From the IMG/VR virus record IMGVR_UViG_2718218171_000006, positions 1 through 41,141 of that record: a stretch of 41,141 bases of DNA; one strand, 5' to 3'. The position numbers were made by a program, and so were the translations under genes. Source of the stretch: a virus (lineage: Duplodnaviria > Heunggongvirae > Uroviricota > Caudoviricetes). Numbering within the stretch: position 1 is the stretch's first letter; every line of letters begins with the position of its first letter. The notes beneath the pieces were generated by a model that was not told where the DNA came from, searched no databases, and worked only from the letters and a program-made list of their open reading frames with translations. Positions 26,281-35,842 of this stretch are shown piece after piece.

Positions 26281-27033
26281 CTATCTTGTCACTTTTCTCA
26301 ATTGCGATTCAGCATACGCTTCTTCCTGCCAGCACTTTGTAACCAGTTTATTAATAACGTCTGCATATCCTTTGTACCACTGATAATCCGTCAGGTCCGG
26401 TACCAGTTTCTGGACATGATGCCGCGCCAGTGTGGTTGGTAAACGGCTAAACCGGTTGCCATTGCAACGCCCACAAATCTTATAAACAGGCACACCATGA
26501 AGCCGGGTTCTTTTTTCATCCAGGACAATACCTTTACCCTTACACCCTCTGCACGCTGTGCTGACTTCTCCCTTACCATGGCAATGCTGACATAGTTCCT
26601 TCACCCACTCTTCCTTGATAACAGATTCCCCGCTTCTGGAGTGTTTCACCACTTCGCGCAATACATTATGAAATCCAGTACCAGCACAATGCTCACAGCG
26701 AGCCTTACTTGCCGCAGACCTGGAATAATCAGCAAAGGCAAAATTCACAAGGTAAGGGATGATCTGTAACCGGGTTTCTTCACTCAATTTGTTCAATGTC
26801 GGGTTATCCAGTGCCATCGCGTAATTGAGCAGACCTTCAATCGCAAATTGAGGATCCTGAACACCAACTTTTGCCAGGAATAAGGCAAACCCAAGCGGTG
26901 CTTTCGACTGCACCATCCCCTGCGCAGCCATCACATCCGTAATCGTTAAACCACCTGAGCCTGTCGCCGGTGCGTCATCGCTCAATTTTGGAGATTTTGG
27001 GGAGTAATATTTTGGTAAGGCTTCAAGGTTCAT
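26281..27033 (-). CDS. Late antiterminator Q-like protein (zinc-finger type)
   Basis: Start at MNLEALPKYYSPKSP...; Cys/His clusters CEHCAGTG, CQHCHGKG, CRGCKGKG, CGRCNGN; position immediately upstream of pR'/lysis genes. Confidence 0.75.
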   Translation of the reverse strand: MNLEALPKYYSPKSPKLSDDAPATGSGGLTITDVMAAQGMVQSKAPLGFALFLAKVGVQDPQFAIEGLLNYAMALDNPTLNKLSEETRLQIIPYLVNFAFADYSRSAASKARCEHCAGTGFHNVLREVVKHSRSGESVIKEEWVKELCQHCHGKGEVSTACRGCKGKGIVLDEKRTRLHGVPVYKICGRCNGNRFSRLPTTLARHHVQKLVPDLTDYQWYKGYADVINKLVTKCWQEEAYAESQLRKVTR

Positions 27034-27046
27034 GCTCGTTCTCCAC

Positions 27047-28042
27047 TTACGCCAGTACGCCAATTGCCAGCGCACGATCGATAAAACGAAATATCAGCTC
27101 CAGCTGAGAGCCATACTTCTCTTCAAATGCCACGGTATCCGCATGCAGCTCGTCGTGATGCTTTCTGCACAAAGGCAACACAAAGAGGTCATGCGCTTTT
27201 GTACCCATTCCACCCTGACCGTGGCCTATCAGGTGGTGGGGATCATCAGCAGGCTTTCCACAACATGCACACGGCTGTGTCTTAACCCAGCGCGTGTACT
27301 TTTCATTAACCCAGCGGCGACGTTTTGGGCGTAACATAAAAGACTCCGGCGACTCCGGATCCACTTTCAGCGCCAGCACCTTTTTCGCCTTATCCTGGAT
27401 GATGCTGGTGGCAGGAACCGAAGGCACAAGGTCACTTTCCCGGGTAACAGACGGCACAACAGGCTTCGGTAATCTCAGTGCCTTACGGGCTGCACTTTCC
27501 GGTAAGGCATCCGCCAGATCATTACGAATCAGCCACCAGCACAGTTCCGGCATTGTCACAACGTGACTGTCATCAAAACCGAGATCCCGACGCACAACAG
27601 ACAACACCCAGCGGGCACAGTTATCCGTTGCCATTGATTCCAGCCGTTCCGTGAACTGATCGCGCAGCTGGTTATCGCAGTGCCAGCACAGACGGATTGC
27701 ACCCGGCGCGTGTCGCATTGTGGTCATGTTCTCGCTGTGCCAGTCGGAATGAGGCCACTGGCAGCCTTTTTCACGAAGTAACCAGCTTTCAAGACATTCC
27801 ACGCCACCAGCACGACGGATCACTGCCTCATTGCGGAACACGGCCCGAACGGCAGGATCATCCGCCAGCGGTTGTGATGCCGCCGGAACGGCACCACTGG
27901 CGAAAGATGAATAACGCTCCGGCTCAGGCTCCAGCAGGACACGCCCCTGCATAAACAGGGGCATCAGCTCTGAACCTGGCCTGAACAATACGATCCCCAT
28001 ACGCGGGGCAATTTCAGGGGTCAGTAGTGCTCTCACGGTCAC
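27047..28042 (-). CDS. DUF968-family phage protein (YdfU-like) with C-terminal His/Cys cluster
   Basis: 331 aa; C-terminus CACCGKPADDPHHLIGHGQGG...CRKHHDELH; nin-region position. Confidence 0.55.
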   Translation of the reverse strand: MTVRALLTPEIAPRMGIVLFRPGSELMPLFMQGRVLLEPEPERYSSFASGAVPAASQPLADDPAVRAVFRNEAVIRRAGGVECLESWLLREKGCQWPHSDWHSENMTTMRHAPGAIRLCWHCDNQLRDQFTERLESMATDNCARWVLSVVRRDLGFDDSHVVTMPELCWWLIRNDLADALPESAARKALRLPKPVVPSVTRESDLVPSVPATSIIQDKAKKVLALKVDPESPESFMLRPKRRRWVNEKYTRWVKTQPCACCGKPADDPHHLIGHGQGGMGTKAHDLFVLPLCRKHHDELHADTVAFEEKYGSQLELIFRFIDRALAIGVLA

Positions 28043-31544: not shown

Positions 31545-31777
31545 GCAGCACCTCCGAGATGCTTCATGTTTTTTCCGGAGCGAAAGGCTATAAGCGGCAT
31601 ACTGATGCGGTAATTACGGCCCAGCGGTTCACAAATCACCTTCTGACATTCACGGTCAACCAGGCTAACACGTAGAACATGCCCTGCAGGCGTGGTGTAC
31701 CACTGCCCAACTGTAGGAATTGATGTTTTTTTACGCTGAAGCAAACGGCAAATATTGAGGAGCAACGGATTAAGCAT
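31541..31777 (-). CDS. Hypothetical protein
   Basis: 78-aa ORF with 4-nt overlaps to both neighbours; no family recognised. Confidence 0.4.
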   Translation of the reverse strand: MLNPLLLNICRLLQRKKTSIPTVGQWYTTPAGHVLRVSLVDRECQKVICEPLGRNYRISMPLIAFRSGKNMKHLGGAA

Positions 31778-32606
31778 GGCGATGCCCTCCGCTGATATTC
31801 AGGAGACGGTGAATATGAAAATTAGCCTTATCCGCCAGACGAATACGTTCAGCCTGCAAGTTAAGAAGGGTTTCTACCAGAACCTGATGCGCCTGCGGAT
31901 CCGAAAGAGTTACCTTGCGCAGAGCACGTAGTGCAGTTGTTACATAACTGAGTTTATGTAAGTCTTCATCATTCAGACGAGAGAGGGCTGGGACAGTAGC
32001 CATGATGGCAGCCTCCGTATGCAATGGATAACTTCCACCACCGGAAACGCCAATTTCGCTGGTGGTGAACTGAGCAGGGTTGGCGTAACCGGCGCATACG
32101 GAAACCGGCGCACCTTTCGGTGCCCCCACCCAGCCCACCATAATTTGGGTATAGCTGAGTTGTAGCAACAAAAAAGACGCTAACGCGCCAATTGTCGCCG
32201 TATGCAATTCCAGGACGCCAATCCCGACACCCGCTTTATAAGGTGCCTGAACAGTGTAACGTCCCGGAATGGCAGAATCAATGTGCTGGTGGTCCTTCAC
32301 ACTCAACAAAATCACGCCTGAATTTCCACAAAGGACTAAAGCACTCATGCGGGTAGTCTTTGCGAAGATAGATAACGCGCTGTGTTTCTGGCTCCCAGCG
32401 AATAACATGGACATAAAGCCCTCTTCCGTCACGAAACCAGCGGTTAAGTTCCTGCACAACTCGCCCCCCACAGTCAGGTAAAGTTCTCTGTGGTTACTTA
32501 CAGCAAGGTGATTTGGTAATCTGCATTCATGCCGTAACAACAGGTGTTCAGCGACGCTGACTACCAGCTGTTGCGACAAACGGTTATTTGCCGTTAAACT
32601 GTTCAT
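31770..32606 (-). CDS. Hypothetical protein (between cII-like and O-like genes)
   Basis: 278-aa ORF, 4-nt overlap with the cII-like gene; no motif recognised. Confidence 0.45.
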   Translation of the reverse strand: MNSLTANNRLSQQLVVSVAEHLLLRHECRLPNHLAVSNHRELYLTVGGELCRNLTAGFVTEEGFMSMLFAGSQKHSALSIFAKTTRMSALVLCGNSGVILLSVKDHQHIDSAIPGRYTVQAPYKAGVGIGVLELHTATIGALASFLLLQLSYTQIMVGWVGAPKGAPVSVCAGYANPAQFTTSEIGVSGGGSYPLHTEAAIMATVPALSRLNDEDLHKLSYVTTALRALRKVTLSDPQAHQVLVETLLNLQAERIRLADKANFHIHRLLNISGGHRHA

Positions 32607-33166
32607 GCGTTAGTTTCTCCACAGACACAAAACGCCACGACGCCCGGAGCTGCACACTCGCGGGCGTCACTCTTTTCTGGAGCGCAAAAGATTTTGTAGA
32701 CCAGTGCTGCATGCTCCTGGAGCTTCGAAATTGACAGATACAACTCATCATTAATTGCTGTCTGCTCGTGTGGCTCCACTACCCCATCTTCGATTGCCGA
32801 ACGAATCTGCTTTGAGTAACTCCCGATCTGTTCGATGACTTCCAGCAGGCGCTGGTTGATATCGGCGTTCTCTACTTCCTCAATTTCAGGAAGCGATACA
32901 AACACCCCACCAGCAGACTGTGCGACAGCATCCGCAATGTAGTGAGTGCCAGCCGCGCGCTGTAAAATCATTGCCCATCCCAGCGGGAAAATCTGATCGC
33001 CATCTGCACGAAGGCGGTTGAATAAAGCGTTCTCTGTTACATCCAGCCACTCAGCAGCTTCAGCGTAACCCCCCGGCAACGCCGCGATAGTTTTTCTGAC
33101 AGCTTTCACGTACCACTCAGGCTGTTTTTCTACTTTCCAGTGATGCTTACCCACGGTTAGCCTCAT
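32603..33166 (-). CDS. CII-like regulator (YdaT / phage 186 CII family, tentative)
   Basis: 187 aa directly downstream of the Cro-like gene; central segment resembles 186-CII/YdaT HTH region; recalled, not searched. Confidence 0.45.
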   Translation of the reverse strand: MRLTVGKHHWKVEKQPEWYVKAVRKTIAALPGGYAEAAEWLDVTENALFNRLRADGDQIFPLGWAMILQRAAGTHYIADAVAQSAGGVFVSLPEIEEVENADINQRLLEVIEQIGSYSKQIRSAIEDGVVEPHEQTAINDELYLSISKLQEHAALVYKIFCAPEKSDARECAAPGVVAFCVCGETNA

Positions 33167-33197
33167 CGTTCTGTGGTTAAAAATTGAAGGTGTTCTG

Positions 33198-33398
33198 TTA
33201 ATCTTTCGGATAGATATCCGGTCTTAAGTCAGATTTCGTAATTGCACCTGACGTGCATTGCTCAAGTTTTTTAGCCAGCACAAAACTGGCTTTTTTATAA
33301 CCATTGAAAACCAGCCGTAAGTAGCCTGGTGTTGAGCCAACTTTGCCAGCCAACTCGGCCTGCTGTTCTTTGGTTAAAGAGTCCCAATACGCTTTCAT
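33198..33398 (-). CDS. Cro-like repressor (YdaS/Cro family HTH)
   Basis: 66 aa from ATG 33398 (MKAYWDSLTKEQQAELAGKVGSTPGYLRLVFNGYKK...); divergent from cI across an operator region. Confidence 0.65.
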   Translation of the reverse strand: MKAYWDSLTKEQQAELAGKVGSTPGYLRLVFNGYKKASFVLAKKLEQCTSGAITKSDLRPDIYPKD

Positions 33399-33488
33399 AC
33401 AATATGTACCTCCGGTGTACATATTACATGATTGAGATGAACCTTCAAGATACTTGTACCTTAACGGTACAAGGGTTTTAATTTCGTT
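33399..33488. promoter_or_regulatory. Immunity operator/promoter region (OR; divergent pR and pRM)
   Basis: Inverted repeats ATGTAC-N7-GTACAT (33404..33422) and CTTGTACC-N5-GGTACAAG (33453..33473); minus-strand TTGAAG-16-TAATAT overlaps the first; plus-strand TTGTAC...TTTAAT ends ~8 nt before the cI ATG. Confidence 0.55.
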
Positions 33489-34163
33489 ATGAAAACAGTC
33501 CATGACATCCGGCGGTCTAACGCCAGAAAACTGAGAGATGGTGTTGGCGGGAATTCTTCCTTTGCCACCATGATTGATCGCGAGCCAACCCAGACCAGCA
33601 GGTTTATGGGAGATGGTGCAACTAAAAATATCGGTGACAGCATGGCACGGCACATCGAAAAATGTTTCGACCTGCCTGTCGGATGGCTTGATCAAGAACA
33701 CCAGACAACGAACATCACAAAAAAACCTGATGTTTCAATCACTAACAAGCAAATAACGTTAGTCCCTGTCATATCATGGGTACAGGCCGGAGCATGGAAA
33801 GAAGTTGGCTATTCTGAGGTTGATTTGAGCACAGCAGAAACTTATCCCTGCCCTGTACCCTGTGGCGAAATGACTTATATCTTGCGGGTGATTGGTGATT
33901 CAATGATTGATGAATACCGCCCGGGAGATATGATTTTTGTTGATCCTGAAGTACCTGCCTGCCACGGTGACGACGTTATTGCATTGATGCACGATACAGG
34001 TGAAACCACCTTTAAAAGGTTGATAGAAGACGGAACACAACGTTATCTCAAAGCATTAAACCCAAACTGGCCAGAGCCTTACATTAAGATCAACGGTAAT
34101 TGTTCCATAATTGGTACTGTGATTTTCTCAGGAAAACCAAGGAGATACCAAATTAAAGCCTAA
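33489..34163 (+). CDS. CI-type prophage repressor with C-terminal S24 (LexA-like) autopeptidase domain
   Basis: 224 aa; N-terminal HTH; C-terminal ILRVIGDSM Ser-Lys dyad motif; divergent from cro. Confidence 0.85.
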   Translation: MKTVHDIRRSNARKLRDGVGGNSSFATMIDREPTQTSRFMGDGATKNIGDSMARHIEKCFDLPVGWLDQEHQTTNITKKPDVSITNKQITLVPVISWVQAGAWKEVGYSEVDLSTAETYPCPVPCGEMTYILRVIGDSMIDEYRPGDMIFVDPEVPACHGDDVIALMHDTGETTFKRLIEDGTQRYLKALNPNWPEPYIKINGNCSIIGTVIFSGKPRRYQIKA

Positions 34164-34175
34164 TCAATATTTATG

Positions 34176-34198
34176 AACCTGCTTCGGCAGGTTTTTTT
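34176..34198 (+). terminator. Intrinsic terminator downstream of cI
   Basis: AACCTGC-TTCG-GCAGGTT hairpin followed by TTTTTTT. Confidence 0.6.
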
Positions 34199-34202
34199 AT
34201 AC

Positions 34203-34235
34203 TTGACAATGTACCCTTGAGATACATAATGTACC
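34203..34235 (+). promoter_or_regulatory. pL-like early-left promoter with overlapping operator (OL)
   Basis: TTGACA(34203..34208)-17 nt-ATAATG(34226..34231); spacer contains ATGTAC-N7-ATACAT, one mismatch from the OR repeat. Confidence 0.5.
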
Positions 34236-34339
34236 TATATGAAACAGCGAACAGGCAGGATGCCCACGAAGTAGCCGCCCGGGGCATATGAAGACCGGGA
34301 TGATTCGTTAGCAACAAAAAAGCGCCGTACCGGACACTT

Positions 34340-34352
34340 CGCTCTTTAACAA
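34340..34352 (+). promoter_or_regulatory. boxA antitermination element in the pL leader
   Basis: CGCTCTTTAACAA: contains the 12-nt rrn boxA consensus GCTCTTTAACAA exactly. Confidence 0.5.
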
Positions 34353-34397
34353 TCTGATCCCCATCAACAAGTAATTGATAACTTGAGGAAGTGTGAA

Positions 34398-34604
34398 ATG
34401 CACAAAACAGAACCAAAAATCGTCGCGCCAGGCTACACAGATGAGGAAATTTACGAGTGGATGACAAAGAAGCTGGCTGCTATAAACCAGCTTCGTGAAG
34501 TGCAGTCTTATCGTCAGGAAACAATAGACTCCTTAAAAAAACTAGATCAGGAGATCACATCTTTATCGCAAGAATCTACTCTAGATATTGTTCATACAAA
34601 TTAG
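34398..34604 (+). CDS. Hypothetical small acidic protein (first ORF downstream of pL)
   Basis: 68 aa from ATG 34398 with GAGGAAG RBS; coiled-coil-like; no family recognised. Confidence 0.4.
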   Translation: MHKTEPKIVAPGYTDEEIYEWMTKKLAAINQLREVQSYRQETIDSLKKLDQEITSLSQESTLDIVHTN

Positions 34605-35010
34605 GATCCCATTCTTTTTCGTCAAAGTTATCAAAGTGATAAATTTGAGATCTCCAGTCTAAATTATCTAAAAAATCCTTAGCTCTTTTACTCATTTTAT
34701 CAAACGTCAATTCATCCTGAATAGAAAGAATAAGATCATCAAACTCCATTTCATTAATTTTTTTTGGTGTCCAATGATGTTTCATAAGAATAAGGTGAAT
34801 CAACGCATTTTTCCCTTTCAATTGATTATAGGGTGTGCTGAATTTCTTTCTATGCTCATATAGTACAAGATCAAGCAAAGTCAGGAATGCGGCTCTTGAT
34901 TCAACCTTAACTTTATCGACTGTTTGAACTATTCCACTAGTATTAATACCACGACACTTTCCAACATTTTCACAGTGGGATGCATACAGGTCACGTATAT
35001 AAACAGACAT
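34576..35010 (-). CDS. Hypothetical protein encoded by an AT-rich moron (candidate exclusion/defence gene)
   Basis: 144 aa from ATG 35010 with AGGA-type RBS; hand-counted 60-nt stretches 27-30% GC; the upstream ORF-track extension is a GC-rich read-through. Confidence 0.5.
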   Translation of the reverse strand: MSVYIRDLYASHCENVGKCRGINTSGIVQTVDKVKVESRAAFLTLLDLVLYEHRKKFSTPYNQLKGKNALIHLILMKHHWTPKKINEMEFDDLILSIQDELTFDKMSKRAKDFLDNLDWRSQIYHFDNFDEKEWDPNLYEQYLE

Positions 35011-35296
35011 TCTCTTTTCCTTTTGCGTTGTTGGGGATACCCAGATTAACCGAATCCTTGTTGTTGGGGAATAACCAGGTCCACCTCGCCTGATGTGGCT
35101 AAAAGCAGGCACATAACAACTAAGTATTTTCAACCAGAGAGAATCCTTAGCATTGTGGTGAATGCGGCTCAGCGCACGCGGGTTAAGGTTGAGGCTGACA
35201 GTCGACCTTCTGTGGATACCCACCCGCCTGGTGTGCAACCTTCGCCAGGCACCGGGAGGCACCCGACACCACAACTTTATGCTGTGTGTAGTCCTG

Positions 35297-35342
35297 GCGG
35301 TACCAGCTTGTACCCTTGCTTCCGGCTGGTACCGCTCTTTTT
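35297..35342 (+). terminator. Strong hairpin with U-tract (intrinsic terminator-like) upstream of the early-left genes
   Basis: Perfect 11-bp stem GCGGTACCAGC/GCTGGTACCGC, 17-nt loop, then TCTTTTT. Confidence 0.45.
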
Positions 35343-35479
35343 ACAAAACAGAGAAGAGCATCACCGGACGACGGGCTCATAACCCAATCCATCCGGGCGG
35401 CTGCCACCACAGGTGTTCTTCTCTGTTTTGTGGAGAAACTAATCGGCCTTGCAGGGCCGATATGATGAGGAGCAGCAAA

Positions 35480-35842
35480 ATGGCTAGCGAACGCAGTACT
35501 GATGTGCAGGCATTTATCGGGGAGCTGGACGGCGGCGTATTTGAAACCAAAATCGGCGCAGTTCTCAGTGAAGTCGCTTCAGGTGTGATGAACACGAAAA
35601 CCAAAGGTAAGGTCTCACTCAACCTGGAAATCGAACCATTTGATGAGAACCGTGTGAAAATCAAACACAAACTCTCATATGTTCGCCCGACTAACCGCGG
35701 GAAAATTTCCGAAGAAGACACCACCGAAACGCCGATGTATGTCAATCGCGGTGGTCGCCTGACTATTCTGCAGGAAGACCAGGGACAATTACTGACTCTT
35801 GCCGGTGAGCCTGACGGAAAACTCCGCGCAGCAGGTCATTAA
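35480..35842 (+). CDS. Hypothetical protein (size and context match YfdP of prophage CPS-53)
   Basis: 120 aa from ATG 35480 with GAGGAG RBS; gene order and sizes 120/274/178 aa parallel yfdP-yfdQ-yfdR; sequence identity not verified. Confidence 0.5.
   Translation: MASERSTDVQAFIGELDGGVFETKIGAVLSEVASGVMNTKTKGKVSLNLEIEPFDENRVKIKHKLSYVRPTNRGKISEEDTTETPMYVNRGGRLTILQEDQGQLLTLAGEPDGKLRAAGH

What the first reader, a model, noticed from the sequence alone, without database searches (positions are those of the whole stretch)
34203..34352. pL-like promoter with a perfect rrn-type boxA in its leader but no recognisable N antiterminator
After the cI terminator comes a near-consensus sigma70 promoter (TTGACA-17-ATAATG) whose spacer carries an operator-like inverted repeat. 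About 105 nt downstream is CGCTCTTTAACAA (34340..34352), containing the full 12-nt rrn boxA consensus; a 12-mer match is unlikely by chance in 41 kb. I find no Arg-rich N-like ORF nearby: the first downstream ORF is acidic. The early-left operon may use host Nus-factor antitermination in an N-independent or unrecognised-N mode.
Basis: partly seen in the sequence, partly recalled or inferred. Interest (0 to 1): 0.5.

Follow-up and report, generated by a model that had tools for sequence, protein, structure and literature searches.

The report
Host-type boxA in N-less phage leader
The early-left promoter of this e14/SfV-like prophage is followed by a previously unannotated, very widely conserved folded leader RNA and then by a perfect copy of the host ribosomal-RNA "boxA" signal, with no N protein anywhere, so the phage probably keeps its early transcription going using RNA signals and host factors alone.

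Summary
A repressor-controlled sigma70 promoter lies at 34203-34230 (-10 is CATAAT with a 16-nt spacer, not ATAATG). An exact rrn-type boxA (GCTCTTTAACAA, 34341-34352) lies about 105 nt downstream. No N-like protein is encoded in the window or in 85 related loci.

1. Positions 34246-34309, between promoter and boxA, are a 64-nt structured RNA.
- Two helices are backed by strong covariation, and a 22-nt core is invariant.
- It heads the early-left operon behind dozens of different immunity promoters, in about 90 Enterobacterales species and in E. coli K-12 e14.
- It has no Rfam match and my covariance model does not match HK022 or HK639, which carry put RNAs.

2. The boxA belongs to an optional cassette, present in about 20% of these leaders.
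- It directly abuts a hairpin that is a minus-strand terminator.
- In 29 of 31 contexts the cassette is followed by a reverse-oriented cargo gene, from at least five unrelated families.

Best reading: boxA recruits NusB/NusE and the Nus complex without N. That would protect pL transcription from Rho across about 860 nt of untranslated antisense RNA, as at rrn operons and CRISPR arrays. The conserved leader RNA may be a put-like antiterminator. Function is inferred, not shown.

The parts
34175..34200 (+). Intrinsic terminator of the cI (YmfK/CohE-like) repressor gene
   Evidence: 8-bp stem, tetraloop and T-run. Conserved in SfV, SfIV, cdtI and e14.
34203..34230 (+). pL promoter: -35 TTGACA 34203-08, 16-nt spacer, -10 CATAAT 34225-30. 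Transcription start expected near 34237 (inferred from the -10 position).
   Evidence: 11 of 12 consensus matches. The identical promoter precedes ymfJ in K-12 e14, where ymfJ and intE are SOS-induced (PMC11002266).
34209..34246 (.). Two operator-like sites (34209-34228 and 34228-46) of the ATGTACC-N5-GrTACAT type, overlapping the spacer, the -10 and the expected start
   Evidence: Repeat families D1-D3 and inverted repeats I1, I3, I5 link them to three sites between cI and cro.
34246..34309 (+). Conserved structured leader RNA. P1 is 34246-51 paired with 34304-09. A small GGC/GCC hairpin with an AGGAU loop lies at 34254-64. The invariant core is 34253-34277. P3 is 34278-82 paired with 34295-99, with a GGCAUAUGAAGA loop. 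The junction AUGA is 34300-03.
   Evidence: Covariation: 95.1% of cells paired against 19-50% for slid controls, 10 of 14 pairs changed on both sides, score 0.608 against 0.176 for shuffles. RNAalifold recovers P1 and P3 on its own. In an independent genome set P1 is kept in 88 of 98 and P3 in 86 of 98. No Rfam match at E up to 10. Model R1 scores 90.8 bits here and finds nothing in HK022 or HK639.
34316..34339 (-). A6 tract plus hairpin AAGCGCC-GTACC-GGACACTT. Read on the minus strand it is a hairpin followed by T6, an intrinsic terminator for the convergent cargo gene. On the plus strand it occupies the position that boxB has in rrn leaders.
   Evidence: Terminator scan, minus strand 34340..34319. 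Folding gives -9.7 kcal/mol on the minus strand against -4.2 on the plus strand. The stem is conserved while the loop varies across contexts.
34340..34352 (+). rrn-type boxA CGCTCTTTAACAA (12-mer GCTCTTTAACAA at 34341-52), a putative NusB/NusE binding site on the pL transcript
   Evidence: unique in the window; exact in 21 of 123 element-bearing loci, with one mismatch in 2 more; fits consensus GYTCTTTAANA; the same 12-mer lies in the T7 early leader.
34398..34604 (+). First pL ORF, 68 aa, acidic, phrog_1744 of unknown function. Its start is 45 nt after boxA. It is absent from other boxA-bearing relatives such as PhiR29_1.
34576..35010 (-). Reverse-oriented AT-rich cargo gene (144 aa, phrog_5286, unknown function). 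The pL transcript runs antisense through it.
   Evidence: GC is 28-38% against about 50% in the flanks, and the plus strand has C>G stretches. No Pfam or PADLOC family.
35134..35344 (+). STnc100-like structured RNA ending in a strong intrinsic terminator (13-bp stem at 35296-35336 plus a U-run). pL transcription must pass it to reach the yfdP-like gene and, in related phages, xis and int.
   Evidence: Rfam RF02076: 36.2 bits, gathering score 47, E 1.2e-5, full length. Fold -27.1 kcal/mol, z -4.2. SfV annotates the equivalent site as a terminator.
35480..35842 (+). yfdP-like gene, the first translated gene after about 860 nt of untranslated pL RNA. An alternative start lies at 35462.
   Evidence: phrog_204, E 1.2e-49. 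Synteny with yfdP-yfdQ-yfdR in SfV, SfIV and PhiR29_1, continuing to xis and int in those phages.

Best explanation
The leader of the repressor-controlled early-left (pL) transcript carries two cis-acting RNA signals and no phage antiterminator protein.

The boxA at 34340-52 is a genuine binding site for host NusB/NusE. It nucleates the NusA/NusB/NusE/NusG/SuhB complex on RNA polymerase without N, as in rrn operons and CRISPR arrays. It sits immediately before the point where the pL transcript stops being translated for any length. After a 68-codon ORF, the RNA runs antisense through an AT-rich reverse-oriented cargo gene and then through a long structured untranslated stretch, about 860 nt in all, before the yfdP-like gene.

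Its job is to stop Rho from terminating this untranslated RNA, so that the distal early genes are still expressed after induction. Those genes are yfdP, yfdQ, yfdR and others, and in relatives xis and int.

The boxA and the adjoining hairpin, which is the terminator of the convergent cargo gene, form a backbone cassette that flanks a slot for reverse-oriented cargo.

The 64-nt conserved RNA at the very 5' end is the universal device of this N-less phage class. I infer that it is a factor-independent or host-factor-dependent modifier of the elongation complex, analogous to HK022 put. That would account for passage of the strong intrinsic terminator at 35296-35344, which a boxA complex alone is not expected to suppress.

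Shown: the sequences, their conservation, covariation, context and the absence of N. Inferred: Nus binding, the anti-Rho role, and any antitermination by the leader RNA.
For: - The boxA is exact and unique in the window and fits the functional consensus.
- It is invariant while the neighbouring hairpin loop and the 3' flank vary.
- No N: with a positive control for the scan.
- No conserved boxB after boxA. Homologous leaders diverge right after AATCTGG.
- No second boxA on the pR side.
- Context: in 29 of 31 non-redundant hairpin+boxA contexts the first long ORF within 300 nt is reverse-oriented, with its stop codon 9-223 nt beyond boxA. For boxA without the hairpin the split is 16 reverse and 19 forward of 47.
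- The reverse genes belong to at least 5 unrelated families.
- All 12 boxA-positive leaders have reverse coding downstream, against 53% of boxA-negative ones.
- The antisense stretch is AT-rich with C>G segments, which is rut-like.
- 40 of 48 hairpin+boxA modules lie behind the leader RNA core, at a fixed 68 nt in 30 of them.
- Precedents for N-independent boxA: CRISPR arrays (PMC7665894) and suhB. The same 12-mer lies in the early leader of N-less T7.
- Leader RNA.
- A strong in-line terminator lies at 35296-35344.
- In e14, with the same promoter and leader RNA, both ymfJ and the distal intE are induced in the SOS response.
Against: - There are no functional data for either element.
- Close relatives (SfV, e14, cdtI) express the same distal genes without boxA, and some of them also carry reverse genes, so boxA is dispensable or replaceable.
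- The association with reverse genes rests on related, not independent, loci (p about 0.015-0.06).
- The complement of boxA pairs with the U-tract of the minus-strand terminator, so part of its conservation could serve that terminator.
- The boxA lies 45 nt before a start codon. That is within the distance at which Nus complexes repress suhB.
- My crude terminator scan found in-line intrinsic terminators in only 30 of 83 element-bearing loci, so reading through intrinsic terminators is not obviously the universal need.
- The window's own leader does not fold better than shuffled sequence (z 0.48).
Confidence: 0.5

Rival explanations
1. boxA acts as a repressor as at suhB. The Nus complex assembled on boxA stays tethered to RNA polymerase, blocks ribosome loading on the nearby 68-codon ORF, and thereby promotes Rho termination, damping early-left expression.
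For: The boxA ends 45 nt before the ATG at 34398. That is within the 50-nt criterion used for suhB-type targets, and a ParE-like toxin gene is repressed in this way.
Against: In 29 of 31 contexts the module is followed by a reverse gene rather than a forward ORF. PhiR29_1-type leaders have boxA with no nearby forward start. The small ORF is absent from most boxA-bearing relatives.
Confidence: 0.12
2. The boxA match has no Nus function. The sequence is kept because it belongs to the 3' end of the convergent cargo transcript, either as the A-rich arm that pairs with the U-tract of the minus-strand terminator or as the U-rich tail of a bidirectional terminator.
For: On the minus strand the hairpin plus T6 is a canonical terminator, and the complement of boxA extends its stem. 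The module always abuts a convergent gene.
Against: A terminator tail does not need an invariant 12-mer identical to rrn boxA. The loop and flanks vary while boxA does not. The same 12- to 17-mer occurs without any hairpin directly after promoters in other phages, including T7, always in the sense orientation. The plus-strand U-tract CUCUUU is poor.
Confidence: 0.15
3. It is a canonical nutL, and a divergent, unrecognised N-like protein is encoded somewhere in the phage.
For: Atypical N proteins exist, for example Gp17 of mEp021. Several small ORFs of unknown function lie in the early regions. The same boxA sequence is part of true nut sites with N-like ORFs in other phages (L138, L239).
Against: There is no boxB-like hairpin conserved after boxA. 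No Arg-rich ORF lies near pL or pR in the window or in 85 relatives. There is no second nut site. The boxA is optional among phages that share all the conserved early genes, which is not expected for the recruitment site of a dedicated essential factor.
Confidence: 0.06
4. The 64-nt leader RNA is not an antiterminator. It could be a 5' stabiliser of the pL mRNA, or a binding site for another host factor such as CsrA acting on its two GGA motifs.
For: It lies at the extreme 5' end of the transcript. It has a GGA in a pentaloop and a second GGAUGA. In-line intrinsic terminators are not seen in most element-bearing loci with my crude scan.
Against: A 22-nt single-stranded and hairpin core that is invariant from Escherichia to Xenorhabdus is far more than a protective hairpin needs. 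The first genes downstream differ completely between phages, which argues against gene-specific translational control. The element is sometimes 60 nt or more from the start, behind other modules.
Confidence: 0.3

Closest known systems
rrn operon leader antitermination signal (boxB-boxA-boxC) with NusA/B/E/G, SuhB and S4
   Same: The 12-nt boxA GCTCTTTAACAA is identical. A hairpin directly abuts its 5' side. It acts, by inference, on long untranslated RNA. No phage protein is needed.
   Different: There is no boxC. The hairpin is weak on the sense strand and is better explained as the terminator of the convergent gene. The transcript is a phage mRNA leader, not pre-rRNA.
boxA upstream of CRISPR arrays (Stringer et al. 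2020, eLife, PMC7665894)
   Same: A stand-alone boxA placed a short distance before a long untranslated transcript to prevent premature Rho termination. It is N-independent.
   Different: Here it sits in a prophage early operon, protects antisense read-through of inserted cargo, and is paired with a minus-strand terminator. Function is untested.
suhB / ParE-toxin 5'UTR boxA (Baniulyte et al. 2017, PMC5725501)
   Same: It matches the consensus GYTCTTTAANA, lies in a 5' leader, and in this window is within 50 nt of a start codon.
   Different: Those sites repress the downstream gene. Here most family members have no forward ORF after boxA.
Lambda-type nutL with N protein
   Same: Same position in the genome map (cI, pL, leader). 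boxA is present, and Nus factors are presumably used.
   Different: No boxB, no N, no nutR, and the boxA is optional within the family.
HK022 / HK639 put RNA (polymerase-utilisation antiterminator RNA)
   Same: The 64-nt leader RNA is about 65-70 nt long, lies directly downstream of pL, occurs in lambdoid phages without N, has a very conserved sequence with helices, and contains AGGAUG-type motifs as the put stem II loops do.
   Different: There is no sequence or covariance-model similarity. The architecture differs: a closing helix around two hairpins, against two side-by-side stems in put. There is a single copy with none on the pR side. Activity is untested.
T7 early leader boxA (between promoter A3 and gene 0.3)
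   Same: An exact GCTCTTTAACAA lies in the early leader of a phage that has no N.
   Different: T7 is a virulent phage, and its boxA has no adjoining terminator or cargo cassette. That this T7 site was noted historically as boxA is my recollection and was not verified here.

Membership tests
Lambda-type nut site (N-utilisation) | boxA element on the early transcript | tested here: met
   CGCTCTTTAACAA at 34340-52
Lambda-type nut site (N-utilisation) | boxB hairpin a few nt 3' of boxA with a purine-rich loop, conserved among relatives | tested here: not met
   Relatives diverge immediately after AATCTGG. The fold of 34237-34400 shows no conserved hairpin there.
Lambda-type nut site (N-utilisation) | Cognate N protein with an Arg-rich motif encoded in the early operon | tested here: not met
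   Pfam and PHROG searches are negative. Arg-rich-motif scans are negative in the window and in 85 relatives. The scan detects N-like ORFs in L138 and L239.
Lambda-type nut site (N-utilisation) | Second nut site in the rightward operon | tested here: not met
   No other boxA at up to 1 mismatch on either strand. The 2-mismatch hits are all in structural genes and at chance level.
N-independent Nus-factor (NusB/E-boxA) target: rrn, CRISPR, suhB class | Match to the functional consensus GYTCTTTAANA, including C at position 4 | tested here: met
   GCTCTTTAACA
N-independent Nus-factor (NusB/E-boxA) target: rrn, CRISPR, suhB class | Located in a transcript leader upstream of RNA that is exposed to Rho (untranslated) | tested here: met
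   About 105 nt after pL. 34605 to about 35461 is untranslated, partly antisense, AT-rich and has C>G segments.
N-independent Nus-factor (NusB/E-boxA) target: rrn, CRISPR, suhB class | NusB/NusE/SuhB association and boxA-dependent change in Rho termination | not testable with these tools
   Needs ChIP, reporter fusions and nusB or rho mutants.
rrn leader signal | boxC (GU-rich UGUGUGGG) downstream of boxA | tested here: not met
   By reading the sequence, the 45 nt between boxA and the ATG at 34398 hold no TGTGTGGG-like element. No pattern search was run.
HK022 put RNA family | Sequence and structure homology to putL or putR | tested here: not met
   Model R1 built on the element finds nothing in HK022 (L008) or HK639 (L013, annotated putL-like RNA at 34187-34312). 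By eye, only the AGGAUGA motif is shared.
HK022 put RNA family | Structured RNA of about 70 nt directly downstream of an early promoter in an N-less lambdoid phage | tested here: met
HK022 put RNA family | Factor-independent antitermination in cis that is sensitive to rpoC zinc-binding-domain mutations | not testable with these tools
   Needs in vitro transcription and rpoC-Y75N hosts.
Rfam STnc100 (for 35134-35344) | Score at or above the family gathering threshold | tested here: not met
   36.2 bits against 47, although the match is full length with E 1.2e-5. It is a probable divergent relative.

The most novel reading that the evidence does not exclude
The 64-nt RNA at 34246-34309 founds a new, very widespread class of cis-acting leader RNAs. 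Its features are helix P1, a GGC-AGGAY-GCC hairpin, an invariant ACGAAGUAGC segment, helix P3 with a GGCRUAYGAA loop, and an AUGA junction. In this reading it makes early-left transcription of N-less lambdoid phages processive, as a functional analogue of HK022 put with an unrelated fold, working alone or with host Nus factors. The optional rrn-type boxA would be a second, anti-Rho module added where reverse-oriented cargo makes the transcript untranslated. This would explain how the many lambdoid prophages without N, including K-12 e14, SfV, ST64B and Gifsy-like phages, get past terminators.
Probability: 0.35. Interest if true: 0.85.

Novelty: new variant of a known kind. Interest (0 to 1): 0.64.

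Why it matters
Many lambdoid prophages have no N gene. [quoted passage not shown]

This window points to two concrete and testable devices.

- An rrn-type boxA appears to be used without N to shield an early operon from Rho where reverse-oriented cargo genes interrupt translation. That would extend the Nus-factor regulon, so far rRNA, suhB and CRISPR arrays, to prophage induction. It would also explain how phages tolerate reverse-oriented morons inside operons.
- An unannotated leader RNA has strong covariation, is absent from Rfam, and occurs in about 90 Enterobacterales species. The window's 200-nt leader query (34201-34400) finds a match in 1115 of 5426 complete E. coli genomes. If this RNA modifies RNA polymerase, it is a second natural example, after put, of RNA-only processive control in enterobacterial phages.

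The RNA is present in E. coli K-12 (e14, upstream of ymfJ), so standard genetics can test it.

Tried and rejected
- Rfam at gathering and at E up to 10 over 33100-35600 gave no family for the leader or boxA region.
- A direct comparison with HK022 putL/putR and the HK639 putL-like RNA found no homology.
- The search for a second copy of the leader RNA or of boxA on the pR side found none.
- N search by Pfam, PHROGs and an Arg-rich-motif scan was negative.
- The hairpin before boxA as an rrn-like boxB was set aside. It is weak on the sense strand (-4.2 kcal/mol, z -0.5), stronger on the minus strand, and has a T6 tail there.
- My own hairpin-plus-T-run scan for in-line terminators in 83 loci missed known terminators such as SfV's, so its 30 of 83 is unreliable.
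- Pfam and PADLOC on five reverse cargo families gave no function.
- King 2011 (PMC3187212) and the e14 analysis by Mehta 2004 are not held in the library.
- mEpimmI 'Nus-dependent non-lambdoid' phages proved to be a different group with an N-like Gp17.
- A literature search for T7 boxA gave nothing useful.
- Thermodynamic stability of the window's leader is not exceptional. The support for structure comes from covariation only.

Full report
**What the window is**

The region is the immunity and early region of an SfV/SfIV/cdtI-type temperate phage.
- The repressor gene (33489-34163, S24 peptidase domain) is 99% identical to YmfK/CohE of the E. coli K-12 e14 prophage.
- cro (33198-33398) and a CII-like gene (32603-33166, PF06892) lie on the minus strand.
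- A Q-like late antiterminator is at 26284-27075 on the minus strand (phrog_127).
- The 200-nt leader query (34201-34400) is 100% identical to a stretch of E. coli TUM1886. It finds a match in 1115 of 5426 complete E. coli genomes, and 215 of them hold at least 80% of it, boxA included.

**The observation**

- After the cI terminator (34175-34200) comes TTGACA (34203-08), a 16-nt spacer and CATAAT (34225-30). This is 11 of 12 matches and the best promoter-like site in 4 kb.
- The spacer holds an operator-like repeat (34209-28). It recurs at 34228-46 and three times between cI and cro.
- CGCTCTTTAACAA lies at 34340-52. The 12-mer GCTCTTTAACAA is unique in the window even when one mismatch is allowed. 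It fits the functional gamma-proteobacterial consensus GYTCTTTAANA.
- The first ORF (34398-34604, 68 aa) is acidic and of unknown function.
- No N-like protein is found by Pfam, PHROGs or an Arg-rich-motif scan in the window or in 85 related loci. The same scan does find N-like ORFs about 90-100 nt after the same boxA in other phages (L138, L239), so the negative result is meaningful.

**What lies between promoter and boxA**

A distant BLAST of 34201-34400 showed that only a block of about 65 nt (34243-34311) is shared with many otherwise unrelated phages. These include SfII, ST64B, mEp237, mEp460, SPN3UB, SEN34, Pectobacterium ZF40, Yersinia YeP1-3, Pantoea AH07, Citrobacter phiNP and Klebsiella phages. 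In each annotated case it lies just after the repressor gene, at the head of the leftward early operon. None of these phages has an annotated N.

Distribution:
- It occurs in 104 stretches of a one-genome-per-species collection, from Escherichia to Xenorhabdus, Photorhabdus, Yersinia, Serratia, Erwinia and Pectobacterium.
- It is in K-12 e14 between ymfK and ymfJ.
- Upstream are dozens of different promoter and operator types. The -10 commonly ends 20-31 nt before the core, though the simple best-promoter scan placed it further away in many loci. In a few loci other leader modules come first.

Structure, from a gapless alignment of 96 distinct copies:
- Helix P1 pairs 34246-51 with 34304-09. 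Hairpin P3 pairs 34278-82 with 34295-99.
- 95.1% of cells are paired, against 19-50% when partners are slid. Ten of 14 pairs show changes on both sides. The covariation score is 0.608 against 0.176 for shuffles, reached by 0 of 500 shuffles.
- RNAalifold finds P1 and P3 independently and adds a small GGC/GCC hairpin with an AGGAY loop. One divergent copy has a compensatory GTC/GAC change in that hairpin.
- In the independent genome set P1 is kept in 88 of 98 unique copies and P3 in 86 of 98, with many different base-pair combinations.

Relation to known RNAs:
- Rfam has no match.
- A covariance model of the element scores 90.8 bits in the window and 71 bits in e14. It finds nothing in HK022, in HK639 (whose putL-like RNA is annotated) or elsewhere in the window.

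So this is a distinct, single-copy, unannotated leader RNA.

**What the boxA belongs to**

Among 123 loci chosen only for having the leader RNA, 21 have an exact GCTCTTTAACAA within about 250 nt downstream and 2 more have one mismatch. In the genome set 17 of 98 have the consensus. SfV and e14, with the same promoter and the same downstream genes, lack it.

Where present, the boxA is directly preceded by A6 plus a hairpin (AAGCGCC-loop-GGACGCTT). The loop varies while the boxA does not.
- On the minus strand this is a hairpin followed by T6, which is an intrinsic terminator.
- It folds better on the minus strand (-9.7 kcal/mol) than on the plus strand (-4.2).

Context:
- In 29 of 31 non-redundant contexts the first long ORF within 300 nt after the module is reverse-oriented, with its stop 9-223 nt past boxA. 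For the same boxA without the hairpin the split is 16 reverse and 19 forward of 47.
- The reverse genes fall into at least five unrelated families with no recognisable function.
- 40 of 48 unique modules lie behind the leader RNA core, at a fixed distance in 30 of them.

Thus terminator(-)/boxA(+) is a backbone cassette at the edge of a slot for reverse-oriented cargo in this class of leader.

In the window the cargo is the AT-rich 144-aa gene at 34576-35010 (GC 28-38%). The sense RNA across it has C>G segments. It is followed by an STnc100-like structured RNA with a very strong terminator (35296-35344, -27 kcal/mol, z -4.2) and a 23-bp hairpin. The pL transcript is therefore untranslated from 34605 to about 35461.

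**Mechanism**

The best-supported reading is that boxA recruits NusB/NusE and the rest of the Nus complex without N. This would suppress Rho on the untranslated antisense stretch. It is the logic established for rRNA and shown for CRISPR arrays (PMC7665894). The same 12-mer sits in the early leader of T7, which also lacks N.

By established knowledge, boxA complexes are poor against intrinsic terminators. The strong terminator before the yfdP-like gene therefore needs something else. The conserved 5' RNA is the obvious candidate for a put-like modifier, but that step is inference only. In e14, with the same promoter and leader RNA, both the first gene (ymfJ) and the distal intE are induced late in the SOS response. 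This is consistent with processive transcription.

mEp237 and mEp460 carry the RNA element and mEp237 has no annotated N. Both names belong to the mEp collection, which a 2025 paper describes as Nus-dependent. I did not confirm their individual Nus dependence, so this is a lead and not a test.

**Rivals**

- suhB-like repression of the 68-codon ORF is possible for this window, because the boxA is 45 nt from the ATG. It does not fit the family, where a forward ORF is usually absent.
- The boxA as a mere terminator arm or tail is weakened by its invariance and by its occurrence without a hairpin after promoters in other phages.
- A hidden N is unlikely, for the reasons given above.
- The leader RNA could instead be an mRNA stabiliser or a host-factor site. 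Its two GGA motifs resemble CsrA sites. This remains open.

**Novelty**

N-independent boxA regulation is a known kind. Its use in a temperate-phage early leader, packaged with a convergent-gene terminator at a cargo slot, is a new variant.

The leader RNA appears undescribed. It has no Rfam match and I found nothing in the literature searches. It could be a new class of antiterminator RNA.

Specialists still describe early antitermination in N-less lambdoid phages as a guess.

Noticed in passing
window 32058-32246 (-): Rfam gathering-level hits to C4 antisense RNA (32058-32145, 80.7 bits) and isrK (32170-32246, 58.9 bits) lie in the rightward operon. Both fall inside the 278-aa ORF 31770-32606 that SfV annotates as 'immunity region', so that ORF is probably spurious. 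pR transcription must pass the isrK terminator, yet there is no boxA and no copy of the leader RNA on that side.
   Followed up: partly
window 35134-35344 (+): A full-length but sub-threshold match to Rfam STnc100 (36.2 bits against 47, E 1.2e-5) ends in a 13-bp-stem terminator. The block is conserved upstream of yfdP-like genes in SfV, SfIV, cdtI and Kati. It is probably a prophage-borne relative of the Salmonella sRNA.
   Followed up: partly
window 35340-35461 (+): A 23-bp perfect-stem hairpin (-43.7 kcal/mol, z -5.96) has a 5' arm that overlaps the U-tract of the preceding terminator. A small hairpin (35442-35461) follows, just before the yfdP-like start. This could be an alternative-structure switch controlling termination or translation.
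   Followed up: no
L009 (mEp237), L010 (SPN3UB), L026, L044, L053, L149: Another conserved leader module, AACGTTCCGCC-N-GGCGAUAAGGGYAAAC, is a hairpin with conserved flanks. It lies downstream of the leader RNA in Gifsy-like phages and upstream of it in others. The leader modules shuffle like genes.
   Followed up: no
L003 (Ayreon), L004 (cdtI), L006 (Stx2c phage); L014, L054, L131: A different 'type-B' leader of about 110 nt replaces the leader RNA behind the same e14-type promoter in cdtI, Ayreon and Stx2c phages. In some contigs it precedes the leader RNA in tandem. It may be an alternative device with the same role.
   Followed up: no
L219 (IMGVR_UViG contig): A put-like stem I (GTCGAACGGCGCGACTTTAAACCATGCGTCGG) is followed directly by GCTCTTTAACAATCTGG. 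This looks like a natural hybrid of a put-type RNA and an rrn-type boxA.
   Followed up: no
L240 (T7) 813-824: An exact GCTCTTTAACAA lies between E. coli promoter A3 (+1 at 750) and gene 0.3 (925) of T7. T7-like contigs in the viral scan (L154, L158, L170, L205) carry the same boxA upstream of ocr.
   Followed up: partly
window 34254-34264 and 34297-34303: The leader RNA shows CAGGAUG in a pentaloop and GGGAUGA at the P3/P1 junction. The stem II loops of HK022 putL and putR also read AGGAUGA. This may be a shared contact motif, or it may be CsrA-like. It is untested.
   Followed up: no
window 34335-34341 and 34388-34394: ACACUUC, the 3' arm of the hairpin before boxA, is perfectly complementary to GAAGUGU, which overlaps the Shine-Dalgarno region of the 68-codon ORF. 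SfIV keeps the pairing through wobble changes and Kati does not. This could be a translational switch or it could be chance.
   Followed up: partly
L259, L260, L307, L311 (Xenorhabdus sp. TCT-1): Four separate copies of the exact 22-nt core lie in one Xenorhabdus chromosome. A few hits come from unlikely hosts (Haloarchaeobius, Chryseobacterium, a Rhodospirillales MAG, Pseudomonas lundensis), which probably reflects contamination or mis-binning.
   Followed up: no
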